Shown: piece after piece, positions 49,320 through 58,706 of the stretch | How positions within the stretch are numbered: position 1 is the first letter of the stretch | Layout: the number at the start of each line of letters is the position of its first letter | Source: Candidatus Atabeyarchaeum deiterrae | GTDB taxonomy: Archaea; Asgardarchaeota; Atabeyarchaeia; Atabeyarchaeales; Atabeyarchaeaceae | Direction: 5' to 3' | Assembly: GCA_037310415.1 (NCBI GenBank) | Contig: CP147780.1 | Coordinates: forward strand, 1,824,001 to 1,888,000 | DNA: 64,000 nucleotides | Notes under the pieces: model-generated | Seen by the model: only the letters and a program-made list of their open reading frames with translations | What the model was told of the DNA's origin: nothing | Databases searched by the model: none | Translations under genes and position numbers: made by a program

Positions 49320-51575
49320 CTACTTCTTTGACATACTCTTGCGTCTGCGCATCATCATCAGCGCCGCCGCTATCACGGCGACGACAATTATAGCGGCAGC
49401 AATGATAATGACAAGTGTCAAGTCAGCAGCACCTGATGGTGGCGTAACTAGGCTGGGCATCATGTATGCGATCTCGTTCTCCCATAGTTCCAGCCTGTCT
49501 TGGTAAGTCGAGTTGTCGAGGTCACCAGCAAACTGATCGATAAGGTAACCATTGTATAAGGTATGACCATCATTGCGGAGGACTATGACAGCTTTGTCTG
49601 CCGTGGCTGAGGATGTGGTGCCTGCGAGAGCAGTGGCGTTGGCGAAGACTGTGAGCTGATCACCTTCGTCACCGTAGTCGATTATCGGTGTGAAGTTACC
49701 CGCAGCATAAGCATTCGGAGTCGTGAATATAGCATGACTTGGATTCCAAATGTATAGAGGAGCTGAACCAGGCATGTCTGACGCATAGGCGAAGCCAAGC
49801 TTAGCCCACAGTGGATGACTAGGAGAAAGGCTCACATAATAATAAGAGAAGATTAGGCGACCACCGGTATCTACGTAGTCAGAGATGTCGCTAAGGTACG
49901 CCCCAAAATCATACCACGGACAGTCGATGATTACCAAAGTCCAACTGTAGAGGTGCATCGATAGATTCAAGTATGAACGAGTGAAAGTCAAGGCAAATGG
50001 TATACCCAAGTCATTCAGCGCTTGGCACACAGGAGTTCTGTAGTAGTTGGAACTATAGGGTTCATCTACGTAGAGCAGAACATTTGCCTTTGAAGCGGTG
50101 AGCCAGTTGACAACGTTGATCGCATACTGATGGTGGCTAACGAGATTGATCCGGTTGTTGCGGAACATGCTAGTGTCTGGGATTAGGATGACGCGACCCC
50201 TTCCGTACTGTTGAGCCGCGATGATGATGTTCTGCGCATTAGTACCCCAGATTGGAAATGCAGGGCTGGTATAGTTGACGAATCCTGTTGCTAAGCAGCT
50301 AAGCTGAGTACAGCTCTCTACAGTTGGGTGCTCGACCTTATAGCTGAATGCGCCAGTATAGGCGGAGCTTGTGAGGTTGACGCGGAGATTGAAGTTCGTC
50401 AGGAGGTAGTTAACGTTTTCGTCGTAGTAGGTAATTGGGAGTCCAGGGCGTTCGCCAAAGATGATAGCGGAGCCACCGTTGCTGATCCAAGTTGTGACAG
50501 CCGATACCTCAGAGGATGTGAAGTTCAAATGCGGCAAAACGATGATAATCAGATCGTAGGGCGCTAAGTTGCTGGCAGTCAAGTTTTCAGAGGCGGACGG
50601 ATAGAGTTTATCGAAGGTATATGATCGATTCACGAGAGCGTTTCGCCATTCAGAGTGCTCTTGCGGCGTGACGGCAAGGCTATCCCAGGCATCCACTCCA
50701 TAGTCAGGCTGGTGAGAAAGGTCGTAGGCGATGCGAGCCTTTGGGTGTGGGCATAGCCAGTTTGCTGCGTCGACGATCATCTGATGAAGGCTGGGTAGGG
50801 CTTCATAGGCGTAGTCGTAGGCGAAGGTAACGACTTTGCCTCCACGATTCGTAGGGTCAAAAGCCAGAACGCTAGCGGTGTTGACATTGTCCTGAGAACG
50901 AGCAACCCGTATAAGGGCACTGTGAATCGATGAACCTTGTAGCGCTGTCCAGTTCCACCGCGCATAACCACTGCCAGTGCTGATGATGTTATTCACGTTG
51001 TAATGCTGCGAGACTGGATGCCTCGTGGTGACATTGATGTCGTTCGCAGAATACTTCCAATAAACGTTCAGACCGTTTACGCCCAGAGATTCAGGCGGTA
51101 ATATCCCAGAGTAGCAGAGGTATTCCACTCCGCTGTCGAAGATGAGCAGCCCACCTCCTCCAAGCCAGAACTCAGCTACCATGTTCGTGATGTTTTCTCG
51201 CGGGTCGTTGTCGACGATCGCCAAGACATCGTAGTCCGCTGTCTTCAGCTTATGACTTGATATGTCCTTGATGCTGAGAAGTGTTGTGCTTACTCCATGT
51301 GATTGGAGCATTGCTGCCAGCTGAGAAGCATTATTGTGAAACAAAGCAGGTCCAGAGACGTAACTTGGTTTCGTCGTGTTCGCCATATCGTAATCGTAGA
51401 TGGCGACCCGCACGGTGTGAGTCACCGATGGTACTAGGTCTGCTGTTCTTGAGTTTGTCACTGATGCAGACGTCAGATTTAGAGGTGAAGTGCAAGCAAG
51501 CATCGTTGCGGTTAACAGAAACGCGAGCGTAACAAAAGCTAGAGTTTTATGTCTGCGTTTTTCACTCTCAAACAA
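49320..51575 (-). CDS. Large secreted, C-terminally anchored protein with repeated GATase-like (DUF4350-like) domains
   Basis: Signal peptide; three modules (FWLGGGGLL, WISNGGSAI, YVDTGGRLI); many sequons; C-terminal TM+RRRK. Confidence 0.75.
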   Translation of the reverse strand: MFESEKRRHKTLAFVTLAFLLTATMLACTSPLNLTSASVTNSRTADLVPSVTHTVRVAIYDYDMANTTKPSYVSGPALFHNNASQLAAMLQSHGVSTTLLSIKDISSHKLKTADYDVLAIVDNDPRENITNMVAEFWLGGGGLLIFDSGVEYLCYSGILPPESLGVNGLNVYWKYSANDINVTTRHPVSQHYNVNNIISTGSGYARWNWTALQGSSIHSALIRVARSQDNVNTASVLAFDPTNRGGKVVTFAYDYAYEALPSLHQMIVDAANWLCPHPKARIAYDLSHQPDYGVDAWDSLAVTPQEHSEWRNALVNRSYTFDKLYPSASENLTASNLAPYDLIIIVLPHLNFTSSEVSAVTTWISNGGSAIIFGERPGLPITYYDENVNYLLTNFNLRVNLTSSAYTGAFSYKVEHPTVESCTQLSCLATGFVNYTSPAFPIWGTNAQNIIIAAQQYGRGRVILIPDTSMFRNNRINLVSHHQYAINVVNWLTASKANVLLYVDEPYSSNYYRTPVCQALNDLGIPFALTFTRSYLNLSMHLYSWTLVIIDCPWYDFGAYLSDISDYVDTGGRLIFSYYYVSLSPSHPLWAKLGFAYASDMPGSAPLYIWNPSHAIFTTPNAYAAGNFTPIIDYGDEGDQLTVFANATALAGTTSSATADKAVIVLRNDGHTLYNGYLIDQFAGDLDNSTYQDRLELWENEIAYMMPSLVTPPSGAADLTLVIIIAAAIIVVAVIAAALMMMRRRKSMSKK

Positions 51576-52460: not shown

Positions 52461-52979
52461 ATGAGGGCGAGGACGTTTAAGGTCATCGTTGTCGGGGAAG
52501 GTGGTGTGGGGAAGACTAGCCTCGTCAGAAGATACGTGGACAGGGTTTTTACTGAAGGCACGATGTCTACTATCGGAGTGGACTTGTCTTCCAAGACTAT
52601 ATTGAACGATGGGGTGGAAGAGATCCTTCAGATTTGGGATCTGGGGGGTCAACCTAGATTCAGGAATATTGCAGACCTTTTCTTCAAGGGGGCTAGTGGC
52701 GCCATAGCAGTGTTCGATGTCACAAGGAAAGAAACCCTATGCGAGTTGAGCGATTGGATTAAACATCTGCGCTTTGTGACTGGGAGCATACCCCTAGTTT
52801 TCGTTGGAAACAAGGTGGATCTGAGAACCTCAAGAGACCATGTCTCGTCAGGCGTCTCTAGGGAAGAAGCAATCAGATTTGCACAAGATTATAGTTCACC
52901 CTATGTTGAAGCCTCAGCTAGAAAAGGCTCTGGCGTGGAAGAGGCGTTCAAGGCTCTCGTAGTAAGACTGGGAGCTTAG
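52461..52979 (+). CDS. Rab-like small GTPase
   Basis: GEGGVGKTS, TIGVD, WDLGGQ, NKVD, SAR; RabF-like LQIW, RFRNIA, FFKGA, VFDVT. Confidence 0.95.
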   Translation: MRARTFKVIVVGEGGVGKTSLVRRYVDRVFTEGTMSTIGVDLSSKTILNDGVEEILQIWDLGGQPRFRNIADLFFKGASGAIAVFDVTRKETLCELSDWIKHLRFVTGSIPLVFVGNKVDLRTSRDHVSSGVSREEAIRFAQDYSSPYVEASARKGSGVEEAFKALVVRLGA

Positions 52980-53043: not shown

Positions 53044-53544
53044 GTGGTGGATGACTTGAACGAAACTATCAGGCAGTACAGGATCTCTGACCGTGCGAGT
53101 ATGATCAAATGCATGGAAGGGTTGCAGGATTATCTTATCTCGATCGATGAAATGAGGAGAGAGAGGCGGATGCCAGGTTATGGGGAGAGCTATACGGAGA
53201 GACTGCTTATGCGAATTCGAAGAGAGGATGGCATTGCATATGTCGCTGAGGATCAGGGCAGGATCATCGGTCTCATTGCAGGTGTGATACTTCGGCAATC
53301 AAAAGAGGACTTGCTTGAGTGTGTTCCATCAAAGGATGGTAGAATACTCGAGTTATTCGTTGATCCGCAGCATCGGGGACGAGAGGTCGGCAGGATGTTG
53401 ATGGAAAAGATCGAGAGATATTTCGTTGAGAAAAAATGCGACGCTGTACACGTCGAAGTCTTCGCACCAAACCTCGACGCCCGCGCTTTCTACCGAAGAG
53501 TCGGGTACGGGGATCGGGTTGTCGACATGATGAAGAAACCGTGA
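53044..53544 (+). CDS. GNAT acetyltransferase
   Basis: LFVDPQHRGREVG, N..ARAFYRRVGY. Confidence 0.9.
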   Translation: MVDDLNETIRQYRISDRASMIKCMEGLQDYLISIDEMRRERRMPGYGESYTERLLMRIRREDGIAYVAEDQGRIIGLIAGVILRQSKEDLLECVPSKDGRILELFVDPQHRGREVGRMLMEKIERYFVEKKCDAVHVEVFAPNLDARAFYRRVGYGDRVVDMMKKP

Positions 53545-53785
53545 TAGGTCTCGGTGCGTGCGACAAAATTCGAATCTTCCATTTTCGAGACCAGCTGGAA
53601 AGCTCCACTCCTTCGGTGATGCGACATCCGCAACAATACTGAGAACCAGATGTGAAAGTAGACAAACTCTTTATTATGCCATACTATATAGGAGAGTTGT
53701 AGAACATACTAAGGAGGTCACATGCCTAGGTCCACAGTAGTCCTAGATAAAGTGTGAATAGGCAACTCGGGGGTCAGAGGCGTTC

Positions 53786-54037
53786 TTGCCTGAAAGAAAA
53801 CTTCACGACTTCCCTTGTCCAGTGTGCAAGAGTATTATCAGCGGGGTAGTGGTCAAGGAAGAAGACATACTGGGCGCGAAGCGCTCTCCGGCGCTTGTGC
53901 CAGCAAAGTGTCCCGGCAAACACGATGTGGCGTTGTATGTAGATAAGCAATTCAGAATAAGAGACGCGGAACCCCTGATTGATCCTAAGACTGCTGGAGG
54001 ATTGGACAAGGCTAGGAAGTGGATCTCTGAATTATGA
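53786..54037 (+). CDS. Small Zn-binding protein
   Basis: CPVC..CPGKH..LYVDKQFRIR; TTG start. Confidence 0.7.
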   Translation: MPERKLHDFPCPVCKSIISGVVVKEEDILGAKRSPALVPAKCPGKHDVALYVDKQFRIRDAEPLIDPKTAGGLDKARKWISEL

Positions 54038-54093: not shown

Positions 54094-54483
54094 ATGATAC
54101 ATAATCTCTATGTATTTGATGAGAATGGACTGCCTCTTCTAACGATAAAACTTGGCAGTATAGAGGCCGATGGTGCTCTATTGACAGGCTTCCTATCAGC
54201 AATGCAGTCTTTTTCGAAGAAGATCTCACAGGGAGATGTTGAAGAGATCAACTTCAAGGACTTTAACTTTCATATCAGATCGCTTGGATCATTGTATGTT
54301 GCTCTGGTGGCTGATAAGACCGATCACGACATTGCCTTCAGGCTGGCTGAGGTCTCGAGCATTGTTGAGAAGCACAAAGACAGCCTTTCCGATAATGCAG
54401 TGCAGACAGATATTAAGAATGCCATAACAAAGAAGGTTGGCATCAGAGACAGGGCGAAAGATTGGGCGAACATAGGTCTCTAG
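54094..54483 (+). CDS. Longin-like domain protein
   Basis: MIHNLYVFDENGLPL, LLTGFLSAMQSFS, VEEINF, LYVALVAD (beta-beta-alpha-beta-beta-beta-alpha-alpha). Confidence 0.85.
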   Translation: MIHNLYVFDENGLPLLTIKLGSIEADGALLTGFLSAMQSFSKKISQGDVEEINFKDFNFHIRSLGSLYVALVADKTDHDIAFRLAEVSSIVEKHKDSLSDNAVQTDIKNAITKKVGIRDRAKDWANIGL

Positions 54484-54510: not shown

Positions 54511-56016
54511 ATGGAAGCATTACAAGCAGCTTCATTTGTGGTGGCAATAGCCTTTCTGCTTGCTTTTATCTCTACCCTAAGGTTCTATAGAGGCAGAGTG
54601 ACAAAGACACGAGCCGAACAGAGATCTGCACTGAGGCCTACCCTCATCATTTCAGTTTCCTTTTTGATGGGAGCGATTGCCCTCTTCGTCAATTTCTACT
54701 CACTACTGATCTACCCCGCCTTCCCAACGACATTTCCTCCACCGCTCGTCGTGGGCGTCTATCCTTGGGAGTTTGCCACTGAGTTGCTGACCCCACTGTT
54801 TGGATTCCTTGTCATGGTCGCCGTCGTCACAGCTTTGAGACGACCTCGGCTGTATGCGCTACCTGTAGCCCTACTTGCGGTGTGTTACATTCTGTCGCTG
54901 CTCTCTCCTAAGCATCCGATGGATGATCCTTTCCTTACGTTCTGGCTTACTTCAAGCTCTCTCATGATTTTTCTGCCCATGCTTCTCTTCCTTTATCTCT
55001 GGGCAAGCACTAAGAGGCCGACTGCTTTTGGGATGTTCACTGGTCTTCTGCTCTACCAGGTCTTCTACACACTTTTCTCCACAACTGAATCTGAGTACGT
55101 TGGAGTACTGGGCTTCTATGCTCCAGCGGAGTATGAGACTCACATTCTGAGATATGGCGTCTTCTATCCTTTCATATTTGTTGGCATATTGCTTGCAGTT
55201 GCTGGTCTGTCCTTTGTCATTTGGAGTTTCTTCTACTCTGAGAAGAAGCTTGGCGGGGAACTCATTGGATACTCTCTGTCGACTGCGGTCATCGGAACAG
55301 AACTCTCAATAATTCTTCTATCACTGGGGACCTTCGCGATTGGGTACTCTATTACGCTCCTCATAACAGCGTTTGGAGCAGGTATCTTCATTCTTACAGG
55401 TTCATACTTATACGGTCGGTATAGAGAGAGTCGTCATACCCAGACATTGATGCTTTCGATTTTCTCGTATTTCGCAGGTTTGAGTTTCTTAATGTTCAAC
55501 ATTGGTCAGCACATCTACCTACTATATGGGCGTCTTGCCTGGTTTGACATAGTGACGCTAACGCTTGGATTGCTCACTGGTGGTTTCCTGTTCCTTGCAG
55601 CGATAACTGCCATGGAGCGAAGATCCCTAGTTTTACTCCCGCCTGCGGTGATAATCCCTCTATTCATTATGTCACTGCTATTCATGCCTTTACCTCCATG
55701 GCTTCTTGCTGTTATGGCTGGAGCAGCGCTGCTGATGACTGTTCTTCCGGGCGTGATGTTCTTTGTTCTTTGGAGAAGAATGAGTAAGGGAAAGGAGAAA
55801 GGGAGAGGTCGAGTCTTAGGAATATTTCTTGGATTCCTCTTTTTGATATTGTCTTCCCCGATCTTGATCCTGAGCTCCACGGTTCCTGATCCAATAGCGT
55901 TCGTAGCCTCAATTGTGGGAATAGCCGGTTCGATTCTAGCATTCGTTGGATCATTCCTCTTCTATCTAGGTGTCTCAGGTAGATTGGACAGGTGGTTCCA
56001 CGAACGGAGGCACTAG
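54511..56016 (+). CDS. About 15-TM membrane protein made of two 7-TM repeats
   Basis: Internal repeat visible (see findings); no transporter motif recognised. Confidence 0.75.
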   Translation: MEALQAASFVVAIAFLLAFISTLRFYRGRVTKTRAEQRSALRPTLIISVSFLMGAIALFVNFYSLLIYPAFPTTFPPPLVVGVYPWEFATELLTPLFGFLVMVAVVTALRRPRLYALPVALLAVCYILSLLSPKHPMDDPFLTFWLTSSSLMIFLPMLLFLYLWASTKRPTAFGMFTGLLLYQVFYTLFSTTESEYVGVLGFYAPAEYETHILRYGVFYPFIFVGILLAVAGLSFVIWSFFYSEKKLGGELIGYSLSTAVIGTELSIILLSLGTFAIGYSITLLITAFGAGIFILTGSYLYGRYRESRHTQTLMLSIFSYFAGLSFLMFNIGQHIYLLYGRLAWFDIVTLTLGLLTGGFLFLAAITAMERRSLVLLPPAVIIPLFIMSLLFMPLPPWLLAVMAGAALLMTVLPGVMFFVLWRRMSKGKEKGRGRVLGIFLGFLFLILSSPILILSSTVPDPIAFVASIVGIAGSILAFVGSFLFYLGVSGRLDRWFHERRH

Positions 56017-56022
56017 GACGTA

Positions 56023-56565
56023 ATGATCAAGAAGAACGTGTTTAAGATCATCATAGTTGGGGAAGGCGGCGTAGGCAAGACCAGCCTTGTCAAAAGACAC
56101 GTAGATGAATCTTTCAAAGAAGACATGAAGATGACCATAGGAGTAGACTTGAGCGTCAAGAGGATGAGAGTGAATGATGAGGAAAGAATGCTTCAGATCT
56201 GGGATCTGGGAGGGCAACCCCACTTCAAGAGCGTTGCTGACCTATACTTCAAAGGAGCACACGGCATGATGTCTGTCTTCGATGTCACCAGAAGGGCATC
56301 CATGGATAGACTAGTCGACTGGATTGACCGCGTCTATGCTACTGTCGGACAAATACCTATGGTAGTAGTCGGAAACAAGGTGGATTTGAGGAACCCTGGT
56401 GAAGGTATAGCAGGAGTGAGCAAAGAAGAAGGAAGAGAGTTTGCAACCAGATACCAGTCACCATATCTTGAGACCTCTGCCAAAGATGGCTCAGGAGTAG
56501 ATGCGGCATTCCAAGATCTCGTCAGCACGTTGTGCCGTGAGAGTCAGTCAATCAAGCCTCCTTAA
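56023..56565 (+). CDS. Rab-like small GTPase
   Basis: GEGGVGKTS, TIGVD, WDLGGQ, NKVD, SAK; paralogue of 52461. Confidence 0.95.
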   Translation: MIKKNVFKIIIVGEGGVGKTSLVKRHVDESFKEDMKMTIGVDLSVKRMRVNDEERMLQIWDLGGQPHFKSVADLYFKGAHGMMSVFDVTRRASMDRLVDWIDRVYATVGQIPMVVVGNKVDLRNPGEGIAGVSKEEGREFATRYQSPYLETSAKDGSGVDAAFQDLVSTLCRESQSIKPP

Positions 56566-56781: not shown

Positions 56782-58056
56782 ATGAATCCAACCAAGATAG
56801 ATGCGGGTCAACGACTCAAGAGCGTCTATCTTCTAGCATTTGCTAACGCGTTTTGGGCGGCTGGTTACGGGATGTATGGTTATATATTCCCGAATTTCCT
56901 CAAATCAGTAGGTGCGACTTCTGCCGATGTTGGTTTCGTGGCTACCATTCTGATCTTGCTTCAAGCTGTCACCTATATTCCTGGAGGCATCCTCAGTGAT
57001 GCAGGACACAGAAGAGCACTTATCATAGCATCATGGCTGCTGCCTGCTTTCGCACCCCTTTTCTTCATCGAAGCCGAGGCGACTCATTCATGGTTGAATA
57101 CGATTCCAGGGATCTTACTATTCGCCAGCGGTTGGATAGGTGCCCCAGCAGTTCAATCATATGTCAGCGAAGCGTCATCATTTGGAAAGAGAGGGCTTGC
57201 TTTTGGAATAATGGTGTCTTCTGGTCCTTTGGGACTTGTCCCATCTCCGCTAATCGGTGGTCTAATTTATGATCAATATGGGATTACGACTCTTTTCCAG
57301 GTAGCATTTGCTCTATACGTTATTTCCACTGCAATGGTCCTGGCGGTCCCGAGATTGAAGGGAGACTATGTCCACAGAGAGGCTCATCTAGTTGAGAAAC
57401 CCGCGAAACCGCTAGAACAAAAAAGCCGAAGCAATGCCTACGAAACAGGAGTTAAGAGTATCAAGGCCAAAAAAAGCCGTACAGGAAGCAACACGGGCAT
57501 TCTACTAAGGCGACTCGTCCCCATGGTCATTCTGAGTTGTCTCTTTCTTGGTTTGGTATACATCGGATCTTCCTTCGTCTCCCTATATCTGATGGAAGAA
57601 TATGGTTATCCTTACAGTCTGATACAGATCATGTTCGCTATTCAGAATCTGTCATCAGCCGTCGTAGTCACCCTACTCGGCAAACTAAGCGACAGATATC
57701 CACCAGCCAACAAATTAGCGCTGGTCGCGATACCTGCAATTGCACTGATCATGGGATACTCTATCCTGCTCCTAACATCAAACCCAGTAGTTCTATCCTT
57801 GGCTTTCGTGTTCATTGGTTCGGTTTCTGCCCTCTTCCCGATAGTCTTCAGCGTAGTGGGTGAGCTTAGCAAGGGGGGGCATGCTGCCCGAAGCTTTAGC
57901 ATAATCATGACTATCCTCTATGTAGCTGAGGCGTCGACGCCTTTCCTTGGGGGCGTCCTATACGGCATCTCGGCGCAGTTGCCTTTCGTCTTAATGCTAA
58001 GTTTAAGTCCTCTCGTGTTTGCATTAACGGTATACGCGCGCAGGAAAACACACTGA
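56782..58056 (+). CDS. MFS transporter (12 TM)
   Basis: GGILSDAGHRR, GKLSDRY, PLIGG. Confidence 0.9.
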   Translation: MNPTKIDAGQRLKSVYLLAFANAFWAAGYGMYGYIFPNFLKSVGATSADVGFVATILILLQAVTYIPGGILSDAGHRRALIIASWLLPAFAPLFFIEAEATHSWLNTIPGILLFASGWIGAPAVQSYVSEASSFGKRGLAFGIMVSSGPLGLVPSPLIGGLIYDQYGITTLFQVAFALYVISTAMVLAVPRLKGDYVHREAHLVEKPAKPLEQKSRSNAYETGVKSIKAKKSRTGSNTGILLRRLVPMVILSCLFLGLVYIGSSFVSLYLMEEYGYPYSLIQIMFAIQNLSSAVVVTLLGKLSDRYPPANKLALVAIPAIALIMGYSILLLTSNPVVLSLAFVFIGSVSALFPIVFSVVGELSKGGHAARSFSIIMTILYVAEASTPFLGGVLYGISAQLPFVLMLSLSPLVFALTVYARRKTH

Positions 58057-58166
58057 TGTTCAAAGTCAAGGTTGATTCTCATTTGCATATGAGCGCAATC
58101 GATCAGCCTGTCCTGCATTGCAGCTCAGGCTTTCCCTCAACTGTCGTGCGTAGGAGGAAGTCAATC

Positions 58167-58706
58167 GTGGGAAAAAGCGATGAATTGTCCATTAAGGGTT
58201 CCGTGATTCGCTTAGTAACTGGGGATATTACCGAACTCGATGTTGATGCAATAGTAAACGCGGCCAACTCGTACCTTAAGATGGGTGGGGGAGTTGCCGG
58301 TGCGATTCTTCGAAAGGGCGGAAGAAGGATCCAAGACGAATGCGACCGGATTGGTTACTGTCCTGTAGGGAGTGCGGTTATTACTACTGGGGGCGATCTC
58401 AGAGCCAAATACGTCATACATGCTGTTGGACCAAGAAATGGAGAAGGAGAGGAGGAAGACAAGCTAAGAAACGCTACATTGAGTAGTCTGAAATTAGCAG
58501 ACAAATATGATCTGAAGAGTACAGCATTCCCAGCGATCTCGACGGGAATATTCGGCTTCCCCGGAGACAGATGTGCAAGAGTAATGGTCCCGACGGTAAA
58601 GTCATACCTGCTGAACGAGAGAACAAGTCTGAAGCTAGTGGTCTTCTGTTTGTACGACAAGGACACTTCCCGAATCTTCAAAACTGAGCTGGAGAGATCA
58701 GTCTGA
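58167..58706 (+). CDS. Macro domain protein (O-acetyl-ADP-ribose deacetylase-like)
   Basis: GDIT, DAIVNAAN, GGGVAGAI, IHAVGP, FPAISTGIFG. GTG start after AGGAGG. Confidence 0.95.
   Translation: MGKSDELSIKGSVIRLVTGDITELDVDAIVNAANSYLKMGGGVAGAILRKGGRRIQDECDRIGYCPVGSAVITTGGDLRAKYVIHAVGPRNGEGEEEDKLRNATLSSLKLADKYDLKSTAFPAISTGIFGFPGDRCARVMVPTVKSYLLNERTSLKLVVFCLYDKDTSRIFKTELERSV

What the first reader, a model, noticed from the sequence alone, without database searches (positions are those of the whole stretch)
54511..56016. Membrane protein is an internal duplication of a 7-TM receptor-like unit
Seen: the halves align by eye. RPTLIISVSFLMGAIALF matches TQTLMLSIFSYFAGLSFL; VAVVTALRRPRLYALP matches LAAITAMERRSLVLLP; LMIFLPMLLFLYLW matches LMTVLPGVMFFVLW; AFGMFTGLLL matches VLGIFLGFLF. 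One extra helix links them, which would keep both repeats in the same orientation. No retinal-binding Lys or kinase domain is evident. Inference: a covalent dimer of a HisKA_7TM-like or GPCR-like sensor whose output is the GTPase encoded 6 nt downstream.
Basis: partly seen in the sequence, partly recalled or inferred. Interest (0 to 1): 0.7.

Follow-up and report, generated by a model that had tools for sequence, protein, structure and literature searches.

The report
Asgard double seven-helix receptor-like protein
This Asgard archaeon (Atabeyarchaeia) gene encodes a 15-helix membrane protein made of two receptor-shaped seven-helix bundles joined by one extra helix; it sits in a conserved four-gene operon with a zinc-ribbon protein, a longin-fold protein and a Rab-like GTPase, so it is a testable candidate for how lipid-free Asgard GTPases are docked or switched at the membrane.

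Summary
The ORF at 54511-56016 (501 aa) is an ancient internal duplication. Profile-profile comparison of its halves gives 97% probability, E 1e-10. Reversed and shuffled controls score 10-25 against 58-77. The predicted topology is 7+1+7 helices with the N-terminus outside and the C-terminus inside. K+R counts are 22 inside against 1 outside.

The gene is the third of a four-gene cassette: Zn-ribbon protein, longin-fold protein, double 7TM, Rab-like GTPase. All four genes, in that order, are present in at least 16 of 20 loci from three Asgard families; partial cassettes occur in the rest. Conserved residues lie almost entirely on the cytoplasmic face.

Best reading (about 50%): a membrane platform or receptor that docks the longin and Zn proteins and controls the GTPase. 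Sensing and binding are inferred, not shown.

This scan has already noted the module on other DNA (62 notes, at least 42 genomes). I found no description of it in the literature searched.

The parts
53786..54037 (+). Gene 1 of the cassette: an 83-aa Zn-ribbon-like protein (PCPxC ... CxxxH) ending in ...DKAxKW(I/M)xx(L/F).
   Evidence: Translation. tblastn finds it just upstream of the longin gene in 18 related loci. Alignment A4 has C11, C14, C42, H46, A76 and W79 invariant. Pfam gives only weak zinc-ribbon and Trm112p hits.
54095..54483 (+). Gene 2: longin-fold protein. The ORF opens at GTG 54076; the likely start is ATG 54095, giving 129 aa as in relatives. Its C-terminus is ...RAxxWAxxxL.
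54511..55233 (+). Double-7TM protein, N-terminal 7TM unit (residues 1-241, TM1-TM7, N-terminus outside).
55234..55344 (+). Cytoplasmic post-TM7 motif (KKLGGELIGY; E250 and Y254 invariant) and linker helix TM8 (about residues 251-271), which returns the chain to the outside.
   Evidence: Alignment A3 invariants. Helix H250-270 in the model. An odd linker helix is needed to keep both units in the same orientation.
55345..56016 (+). C-terminal 7TM unit (residues 279-489, TM9-TM15), a 12-aa cytoplasmic tail (G490, D493 conserved; GRLDRWF) and the stop codon.
56023..56565 (+). Gene 4: 180-aa Rab-like small GTPase with complete G1-G5 motifs and the catalytic Gln. It has no lipidation motif and no N-terminal amphipathic helix.
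   Evidence: Pfam Ras 3.5e-46. Best PDB matches are Thorarchaeota Rab 7ezb (9e-35), then Rab18, Rab1, Rab23. Alignment A5 has GEGGVGKTS, T38, WDxGGQ, NKxD and SAK invariant or nearly so, with variable Cys-free C-termini.
53660..53705 (+). A/T-rich TATA-like stretch (CTTTATTATG...ACTATATAGG) in the 241-nt gap upstream of gene 1; a possible operon promoter (inferred only).
   Evidence: Read directly. Gaps inside the cassette are 57, 27 and 6 nt, against 241 nt upstream and 216 nt downstream.

Best explanation
The protein is a polytopic membrane platform built from two diverged GPCR-fold 7TM bundles in one chain (N-out, C-in, joined by helix 8). Its conserved surface is the cytoplasmic face. I propose that this face docks the co-encoded longin-fold protein and Zn-ribbon protein. 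These two share a C-terminal A-x-x-W-x(3-4)-[FL] helix, and each may bind one of the two pseudo-symmetric units. Through them, the platform would recruit the co-encoded Rab-like GTPase, or control its nucleotide state. That GTPase has no lipid anchor of its own. The variable outer loops may receive a signal, so the platform may also be a true receptor.

Shown: the duplication, the topology, the predicted fold, the identities of the partners, the operon conservation and the inward bias of conservation. Inferred: all binding, any GEF or GAP activity, and any ligand sensing.
For: (1) The duplication is significant and ancient. (2) Topology: 15 helices; across 31 sequences K+R averages 22.0 in the loops assigned inside and 1.0 in those assigned outside. 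(3) The fold is GPCR-like for both units. The Atlas's own ESMFold model splits at the same boundaries (275-491, 1-244) and resembles N-terminal 7TM modules of bacterial sensor proteins. (4) The Zn-ribbon -> longin -> double-7TM -> GTPase order, co-directional with short gaps, recurs across three Asgard families: tblastn finds the GTPase in 18 of 20 loci, the Zn gene in 19 and the longin in 13, and ORF maps show a 129-150 aa ORF at the longin position in the other loci that reach that far. All four genes are present in at least 16 loci. (5) Of 31 positions with >=80% consensus, 28 lie in cytoplasmic loops or the inner third of helices, and none lies in outer loops or the outer third. Outer loops carry lineage-specific insertions. 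(6) The partner is a longin-fold protein, the fold used by TRAPP, Mon1-Ccz1 and other GTPase regulators. In other Asgard genomes the same longin profile is fused N-terminally to a small GTPase: L052:851-1846 matches the longin at 3e-21 and the GTPase at 1.5e-42, and L051:844-1818 is similar. (7) The GTPase has a full catalytic set but no lipidation signal. (8) The Zn and longin proteins both end in an invariant A-x-x-W motif, 4-5 residues from the C-terminus.
Against: No experiment and no supported complex prediction shows that any of these proteins bind. The fold rests on predicted models: AF2 with a shallow alignment of 18 sequences, by a predictor trained on many GPCR structures. Foldseek on the whole model gave only weak matches (best E 0.016). 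No conserved polar or charged residue marks a ligand pocket in the membrane core; the only mid-membrane conserved positions are P156, G232 and P413. That fits a passive scaffold as well as a receptor. Gene order alone cannot tell whether the membrane protein acts upstream of the GTPase (sensor or anchor) or downstream of it (effector or cargo).
Confidence: 0.5

Rival explanations
1. Direct GPCR-style coupling. The double 7TM is a ligand-activated receptor that itself acts as the exchange factor for the downstream Rab-like GTPase, as a GPCR does for G-alpha. The longin and Zn proteins are accessory.
For: GPCR-like fold. The GTPase gene lies 6 nt downstream and is always adjacent. The cytoplasmic helix ends and loops are conserved, including an acidic-basic pair at the inner end of the TM3-equivalent helix (A-M-E-R-R at residues 367-371; ALDW[KR] in other lineages). 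The outer loops are variable.
Against: No ligand pocket is conserved. The cassette always carries a longin-fold protein, the usual regulator platform for Rab-type GTPases. Longin-GTPase fusions exist elsewhere in Asgard genomes, which points to the longin, not the 7TM, as the direct partner of the GTPase. There are no GPCR sequence motifs or profile matches.
Confidence: 0.2
2. The membrane protein is the target rather than the sensor. The GTPase-longin-Zn module controls the insertion, sorting, turnover or activity of the double-7TM protein, which has its own function, for example as a lipid scramblase, channel or transporter.
For: Operon conservation fits either direction of control. Some GPCR-fold proteins scramble lipids (established knowledge, not tested here). 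A source auto-named two fragments of the family 'Na+/proline symporter'.
Against: No transporter or channel stands among the 50 listed structural matches; 49 are GPCR-fold chains and the one exception is a poorly superposed ceramidase. No charged or polar residues are conserved in the membrane core. There is no Pfam transporter match for any of 31 members, so the 'symporter' names are unsupported by any profile. Conservation sits on the cytoplasmic surface rather than along a pore.
Confidence: 0.15
3. A prokaryote-type 7TM sensor module, like 7TMR-DISM or the N-terminal 7TM domains of histidine kinases, that has lost or never had a fused output domain. The resemblance to eukaryotic GPCRs then reflects only the common 7TM bundle and the make-up of the PDB.
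For: The Atlas structural neighbours include 7TMR-DISM_7TM proteins fused to SpoIIE or GGDEF, and several histidine kinases (TM by row 0.26-0.50). The nearest Pfam-bearing feature cluster carries HisKA_7TM on 10% of its members, at score 0.84. The PDB holds mainly eukaryotic GPCRs, so a PDB search cannot rank bacterial 7TM sensors.
Against: There is no Pfam match to 7TMR-DISM_7TM or HisKA_7TM even at E<=10. The Atlas scores are in the range the tool calls leads only. This rival concerns ancestry, not mechanism, and is compatible with the best explanation.
Confidence: 0.1

Closest known systems
Eukaryotic GPCR 7TM domains (best matches: adhesion/class B2 ADGRL3 8jmt_A, ADGRV1, ADGRG2; also classes B1, C, F, T and A)
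   Different: No sequence-profile membership. Two units in one chain joined by an eighth helix. No extracellular domain. The linked GTPase is a monomeric Rab-like protein, not a heterotrimeric G protein. A longin and a Zn-ribbon protein are co-encoded. Known only from Asgard archaea.
Actinobacterial conservon (CvnA-CvnB-CvnC-CvnD; Mfp operon), as reviewed in PMC4316618
   Same: A four-gene operon joining a membrane protein, a roadblock/longin-superfamily protein, a small protein of unknown function and a Ras-superfamily GTPase. It is described as a membrane-associated complex resembling G-protein-coupled regulation.
Longin-platform regulators of Rab/Rag GTPases at membranes (TRAPP core Bet5/Trs23-synbindin, Mon1-Ccz1, Ragulator-LAMTOR with membrane partners such as LYCHOS/GPR155)
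   Same: A longin or roadblock fold beside a Rab-like GTPase. A polytopic membrane protein with a GPCR-like domain may serve as the docking site. LYCHOS was the top, though weak, Foldseek match of the whole model (E 0.016, probability 0.94-0.98, TM 0.26-0.30).
   Different: A single small longin protein instead of multi-subunit complexes. No sequence homology to LYCHOS, and the structural match is limited to the 7TM bundle. No evidence here of GEF or GAP activity.
n+1+n parallel-repeat membrane proteins (eukaryotic SWEET 3+1+3; tandem rhodopsin domains in bestrhodopsins)
   Same: Two homologous bundles with an odd helix count are kept in the same orientation by one linker helix. This comparison comes from my own knowledge of those families and was not tested here.
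   Different: The repeat unit here is a GPCR-fold 7TM bundle without a retinal lysine and without transporter features.

Membership tests
GPCR superfamily (eukaryotic 7TM receptors) | Seven transmembrane helices, N-terminus outside, C-terminus inside | tested here: met
   Each unit has 7 helices. K+R is 22.0 inside against 1.0 outside per protein over 31 sequences. Topology is inferred from the positive-inside rule, not measured.
GPCR superfamily (eukaryotic 7TM receptors) | GPCR-type packing of the seven helices | tested here: met
GPCR superfamily (eukaryotic 7TM receptors) | Match to a GPCR sequence family profile (7tm_1/2/3, Frizzled, Dicty_CAR and others) | tested here: not met
   No Pfam family at E<=10 for P0001. 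No GPCR family at E<=1 for any of 31 members.
GPCR superfamily (eukaryotic 7TM receptors) | Coupling to a heterotrimeric G protein or arrestin | not testable with these tools
   The linked GTPase is Rab-like. Binding was not established.
Microbial rhodopsins | Schiff-base lysine in the seventh helix | tested here: not met
   No Lys in TM7 or TM15 in 31 of 31 sequences.
Prokaryotic 7TM sensor modules (7TMR-DISM_7TM PF07695, HisKA_7TM PF16927) | Profile match to the family | tested here: not met
   No Pfam match. There are only Atlas leads: structural rows with TM 0.26-0.50, and a feature score of 0.84 for a cluster with HisKA_7TM on 10% of members.
Prokaryotic 7TM sensor modules (7TMR-DISM_7TM PF07695, HisKA_7TM PF16927) | Fused cytoplasmic output domain (kinase, GGDEF, phosphatase) | tested here: not met
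   The protein ends 12 residues after TM15, and no domain is detected.
Actinobacterial conservon (CvnA-D) | The membrane component is a histidine kinase | tested here: not met
   No HisKA or HATPase domain. The definition is taken from PMC4316618.
Actinobacterial conservon (CvnA-D) | MglA-family GTPase with an MglB-type roadblock partner | tested here: not met
Longin-domain GTPase regulators (TRAPP, Mon1-Ccz1 and the like) | Longin fold (b-b-a-b-b-b-a) | tested here: met
   Applies to the neighbour gene 54095-54483, not to the membrane protein.
Longin-domain GTPase regulators (TRAPP, Mon1-Ccz1 and the like) | Measured GEF or GAP activity on the cognate GTPase | not testable with these tools
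   Needs biochemistry.

The most novel reading that the evidence does not exclude
Asgard archaea possess a receptor-coupled small-GTPase system. In it, a covalent pair of GPCR-fold bundles transmits an outside signal through a longin-fold exchange factor (with a Zn-ribbon cofactor) to a Rab-like GTPase. That would be a prokaryotic counterpart of two things at once: GPCR-to-G-protein signalling, and receptor- or platform-dependent Rab/Rag recruitment to membranes. It would also suggest that the GPCR fold was already wired to GTPase switches before eukaryotes arose.
Probability: 0.25. Interest if true: 0.9.

Novelty: new variant of a known kind. Interest (0 to 1): 0.72.

Why it matters
Asgard genomes encode dozens of Ras-superfamily GTPases and longin or roadblock proteins. 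Which regulator serves which GTPase is usually unclear. One study of an Asgard isolate states that GTPase genes are generally not in operons with such regulators, which makes matching hard (PMC10933270). These GTPases also lack the lipid anchors that eukaryotic Rabs and Arfs use, so how they reach membranes is unknown.

This cassette names one switch, its likely regulator, a small cofactor and a membrane partner. All four have been inherited together in three Asgard families. The membrane partner has the fold of eukaryotic G-protein-coupled receptors, as a covalent pair. That bears on the long-standing question of where the GPCR fold and its link to GTPases came from. All four proteins are small enough for co-expression, pull-down, nucleotide-exchange assays and cryo-EM.

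Tried and rejected
1. Complex prediction with all four proteins, scoring the membrane protein as partner. Scores were 0.32, 0.36 and 0.24; controls with the partner replaced scored 0.00 and 0.00; the control with the GTPase replaced scored 0.29. The tool's verdict was 'no answer'. I do not use it as evidence either way.

2. Foldseek of the whole 501-residue model against the PDB gave no match at E<=0.001. The best were LYCHOS/GPR155 at 0.016, and KR2 and the ETB receptor at about 0.4-0.5. The domain-level signal appeared only with VIA-align.

3. Search for single-unit (about 240 aa) relatives. The 'shorter' search and a search with the C-unit profile returned only seven short proteins on short contigs (0.7-5.9 kb), most or all apparently fragments of full-length genes. 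The full-length profile found only 420-500 aa open frames in 400 genomes, apart from shorter frames on very short contigs. The Atlas lists Asgard clusters of 240-241 aa at feature score 0.93, but their sequences could not be retrieved, so this remains a lead only.

4. The six long ORFs I fetched that hit the longin profile had no TM segments. Two were longin-GTPase fusions. Not confirmed here.

5. Retinal-binding rhodopsin, rejected: no Lys in the seventh helix of either unit.

7. Sequence profile of the longin family against the PDB: only non-significant rows (MON1 0.46, Bet5 0.97). The fold search was needed.

So I have no read-level evidence of expression or co-transcription, and read laying was not used.

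9. Literature searches for Asgard with GPCR, 7TM or seven-transmembrane plus GTPase found no description of this protein or operon. One 2026 preprint mentions in passing '7TM proteins' and 'a class C GPCR' among Asgard-eukaryote structural clusters, without detail. Its supplements, and those of Liu et al., are not held.

Full report
**What is there.** The ORF at 54511-56016 (+) encodes 501 residues with no Pfam match, even at E<=10. Close homologues (50-61% identity, 470-507 aa) come from metagenomes. Two carry source names, an Atabeyarchaeia MAG and a Njordarchaeota archaeon, so the window is from an Asgard archaeon. Its genome is one 2.76-Mb contig with a single copy of the gene. An exhaustive HMMER search of 1.84 billion representative proteins found only 31 clusters. 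Full-length members are 428-491 aa (plus the 502-aa close relative); the shorter hits cover only part of the query. In 400 genomes of the same phylum, 43 have a match. These lie in three families: 2 of 2, 3 of 19, and 37 of 89 in a group reported together. Some genomes carry two or three copies.

**The duplication is real.**
- On the single sequence, Smith-Waterman of the N half against the C half scores 112 (187 columns, 34.8% identity). Shuffle maxima are 88 and 96 (z 9.6 and 6.8).
- Profile against profile, the halves align at 94.6% probability, E 7e-8, over N 6-241 and C 280-498. Thirty-four reversed or column-shuffled controls score 10-25, against 57.6 for the real pair.
- A broader 31-sequence alignment raises this to 97%, E 1e-10. 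The 26 distant members alone give 97.2%, E 3e-11.

The duplication is therefore older than the divergence of the three Asgard families. No single-unit relative was found by sequence.

**Topology.** Hydropathy and the AlphaFold2 model (pLDDT 85.4, pTM 0.79) agree on 15 long helices. Assigning sides by the positive-inside rule gives N-out and C-in. Over 31 sequences the inside loops average 22.0 Lys+Arg per protein and the outside loops 1.0. Each repeat is thus a 7TM unit with the N-terminus outside and the C-terminus inside. Helix 8 (about residues 251-271) carries the chain back out, so the second unit has the same orientation.

**Fold.** Foldseek on the whole model was weak (best E 0.016, LYCHOS/GPR155). 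VIA-align against 48,161 PDB representatives was clear.
- Forty-nine of the 50 listed entries are GPCR-fold chains: adhesion, secretin, class C, Frizzled/Smoothened, taste and class A receptors, LYCHOS, and two designed soluble GPCR-like folds. The one exception is an alkaline ceramidase at rmsd 16 Å.

The Atlas's own ESMFold model splits at the same boundaries. It finds structural neighbours among bacterial 7TM sensor modules (7TMR-DISM, kinase N-termini), at TM-scores that are leads only.

No sequence family claims the protein. None of 31 members has a lysine in the seventh helix of either unit. There is no output domain: the chain ends 12 residues after TM15.

So the protein has the GPCR fold but is a member of no known family. 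Two caveats apply. The fold rests on predicted models. And the PDB is rich in eukaryotic GPCRs and poor in bacterial 7TM sensors, so the ranking cannot decide ancestry.

**Neighbourhood.** The gene is the third of four co-directional, closely spaced genes. Internal gaps are 57, 27 and 6 nt, flanked by gaps of 241 and 216 nt.
- Gene 1 (53786-54037) is an 83-aa protein with invariant CPxC...CxxxH, which looks like a zinc ribbon.
- Gene 4 (56023-56565) is a complete Rab-like GTPase. Its best PDB match is the solved Thorarchaeota Rab, followed by Rab18, Rab1 and Rab23. It has all G motifs and no lipidation signal.

In 20 loci fetched around homologues of the membrane protein, tblastn finds the GTPase immediately downstream in 18, the Zn protein in 19 and the longin in 13. 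ORF maps show a 129-150 aa ORF at the longin position in the other loci that reach that far, and 19 such proteins align as one family. All four genes, in the same order, are present in at least 16 loci. The loci that lack a gene are short or cut by contig ends.

Between the window's family and the other two, identities to the window's proteins are about 20-26% (7TM), 19-33% (longin), 39-49% (Zn) and 39-45% (GTPase). This fits a unit that has been inherited together for a long time.

**Where the constraint lies.** In the 31-sequence alignment, 28 of the 31 positions with >=80% consensus sit in cytoplasmic loops or the inner third of helices. Three sit mid-membrane (two Pro, one Gly). None sits in the outer third or the outer loops. 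The outer loops also carry lineage-specific insertions. The two units keep matching inner-face motifs:
- R-F-Y-R and G-R-Y-R after the first helix of each unit;
- R-P-T and x-Q-T at the start of the second;
- L-F-x-Y-L-W and M-F-x-V-L-W in the fifth;
- G-G-E-x-x-G-Y and G-R-x-D-R-W after the seventh.

The C unit is the better conserved of the two. The Zn protein and the longin, otherwise unrelated, both end in an invariant A-x-x-W followed by 4-5 residues. An earlier first-reader note had pointed to this echo, and I confirmed its conservation. In other Asgard genomes the same longin profile is fused to a small GTPase in one chain. That is independent support for the longin and the GTPase working together.

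**Mechanism proposed.** The double 7TM is most likely a membrane platform. Its conserved cytoplasmic face would dock the longin and Zn proteins, possibly one per unit through their shared C-terminal helix. Through them it would recruit or switch the anchor-less Rab-like GTPase. It may also sense an outside signal through its variable outer face. I put this at about 50%.

The steps shown are the duplication, topology, predicted fold, partner identities, synteny and inward conservation. Binding, catalytic regulation and sensing are inferences.

Rivals:
- direct GPCR-style exchange activity on the GTPase (about 20%);
- the membrane protein as target or effector of the GTPase module, with a transport or scramblase function of its own (about 15%);
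- a bacterial-type 7TM sensor lineage, which is a statement about ancestry rather than mechanism (about 10%).

The single four-chain complex prediction gave no verdict and is not used.

**Comparison with what is known.** The nearest fold is the GPCR 7TM domain. The nearest system logic is the actinobacterial conservon: a membrane sensor kinase, a roadblock protein, a small unknown protein and an MglA-type GTPase (PMC4316618). Eukaryotic longin-platform regulators of Rab and Rag GTPases at membranes are also close in logic. The cassette fails the defining tests of each family. It has no GPCR profile, no kinase, a longin rather than an MglB-type roadblock, and a Rab-like rather than MglA-type GTPase.

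Liu et al. describe a different Asgard operon, LAMTOR1-like roadblock + Rab-like GTPase + DENN. Tran et al. note that Asgard GTPases are generally not in operons with regulators. I found no paper describing this protein or cassette. One 2026 preprint only lists '7TM proteins' and 'a class C GPCR' among structural clusters.

Within this scan the module has been noted before on other DNA: 62 notes in at least 42 genomes, mostly Thorarchaeota-type, with similar conclusions.

**Verdict.** This is a new variant of known kinds: a GPCR-fold receptor-like protein in an unprecedented covalent 7+1+7 form, wired by operon to a longin, a zinc ribbon and a Rab-like GTPase. Interest is 0.72.

Noticed in passing
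window 52461-52979 (+): A second Rab-like GTPase (172 aa, Pfam Ras 4.5e-42), 54% identical to the cassette's GTPase. It lies about 800 nt upstream of the cassette on the same strand, separated from it by a GNAT acetyltransferase gene (53044-53544). I did not check whether it belongs to the module.
   Followed up: partly
window 49320-51575 (-): A 751-aa protein with weak but above-threshold Pfam hits to DUF4350 and the IFT52 GIFT domain, plus DUF2194 and a below-threshold ABC_transp_aux hit. An IFT52-type GIFT domain in an Asgard genome may deserve its own look.
   Followed up: no
window 56782-58706 (+): An MFS transporter gene (56782-58056) whose last base overlaps the start of a Macro-domain protein gene (58056-58706). 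An odd pairing.
   Followed up: no
L052:851-1846:- and L051:844-1818:-: Other Asgard genomes encode single-chain fusions of this longin family (N-terminal, E 3e-21 and 5e-21) with a small GTPase (C-terminal, E 1.5e-42 and 7e-17) and no TM segments.
   Followed up: partly
window 54003-54034 and 54446-54480; tail of the 7TM at 55978-56013: The Zn-ribbon protein and the longin protein both end in an invariant A-x-x-W followed by 4-5 residues (DKAxKWxxx[LF] and RAxxWAxxxL). The membrane protein's tail (GRLDRWF) and its post-TM7 segment (GGELIGY) are weaker echoes. This may be a shared docking helix.
   Followed up: partly
proteins P0057 and P0024 (metagenome fragments): A source names these fragments of the family 'Na+/proline symporter'. 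No profile supports that name, so it is probably an automatic misannotation.
   Followed up: partly
G318:C119:18704-23878; proteins P0007 and P0008, each reported on a single contig of 34,749 bases: Some genomes carry two or three copies of the double-7TM gene, sometimes a few kb apart; one pair is in opposite orientation with longin genes between them. This points to local duplication of the module.
   Followed up: no
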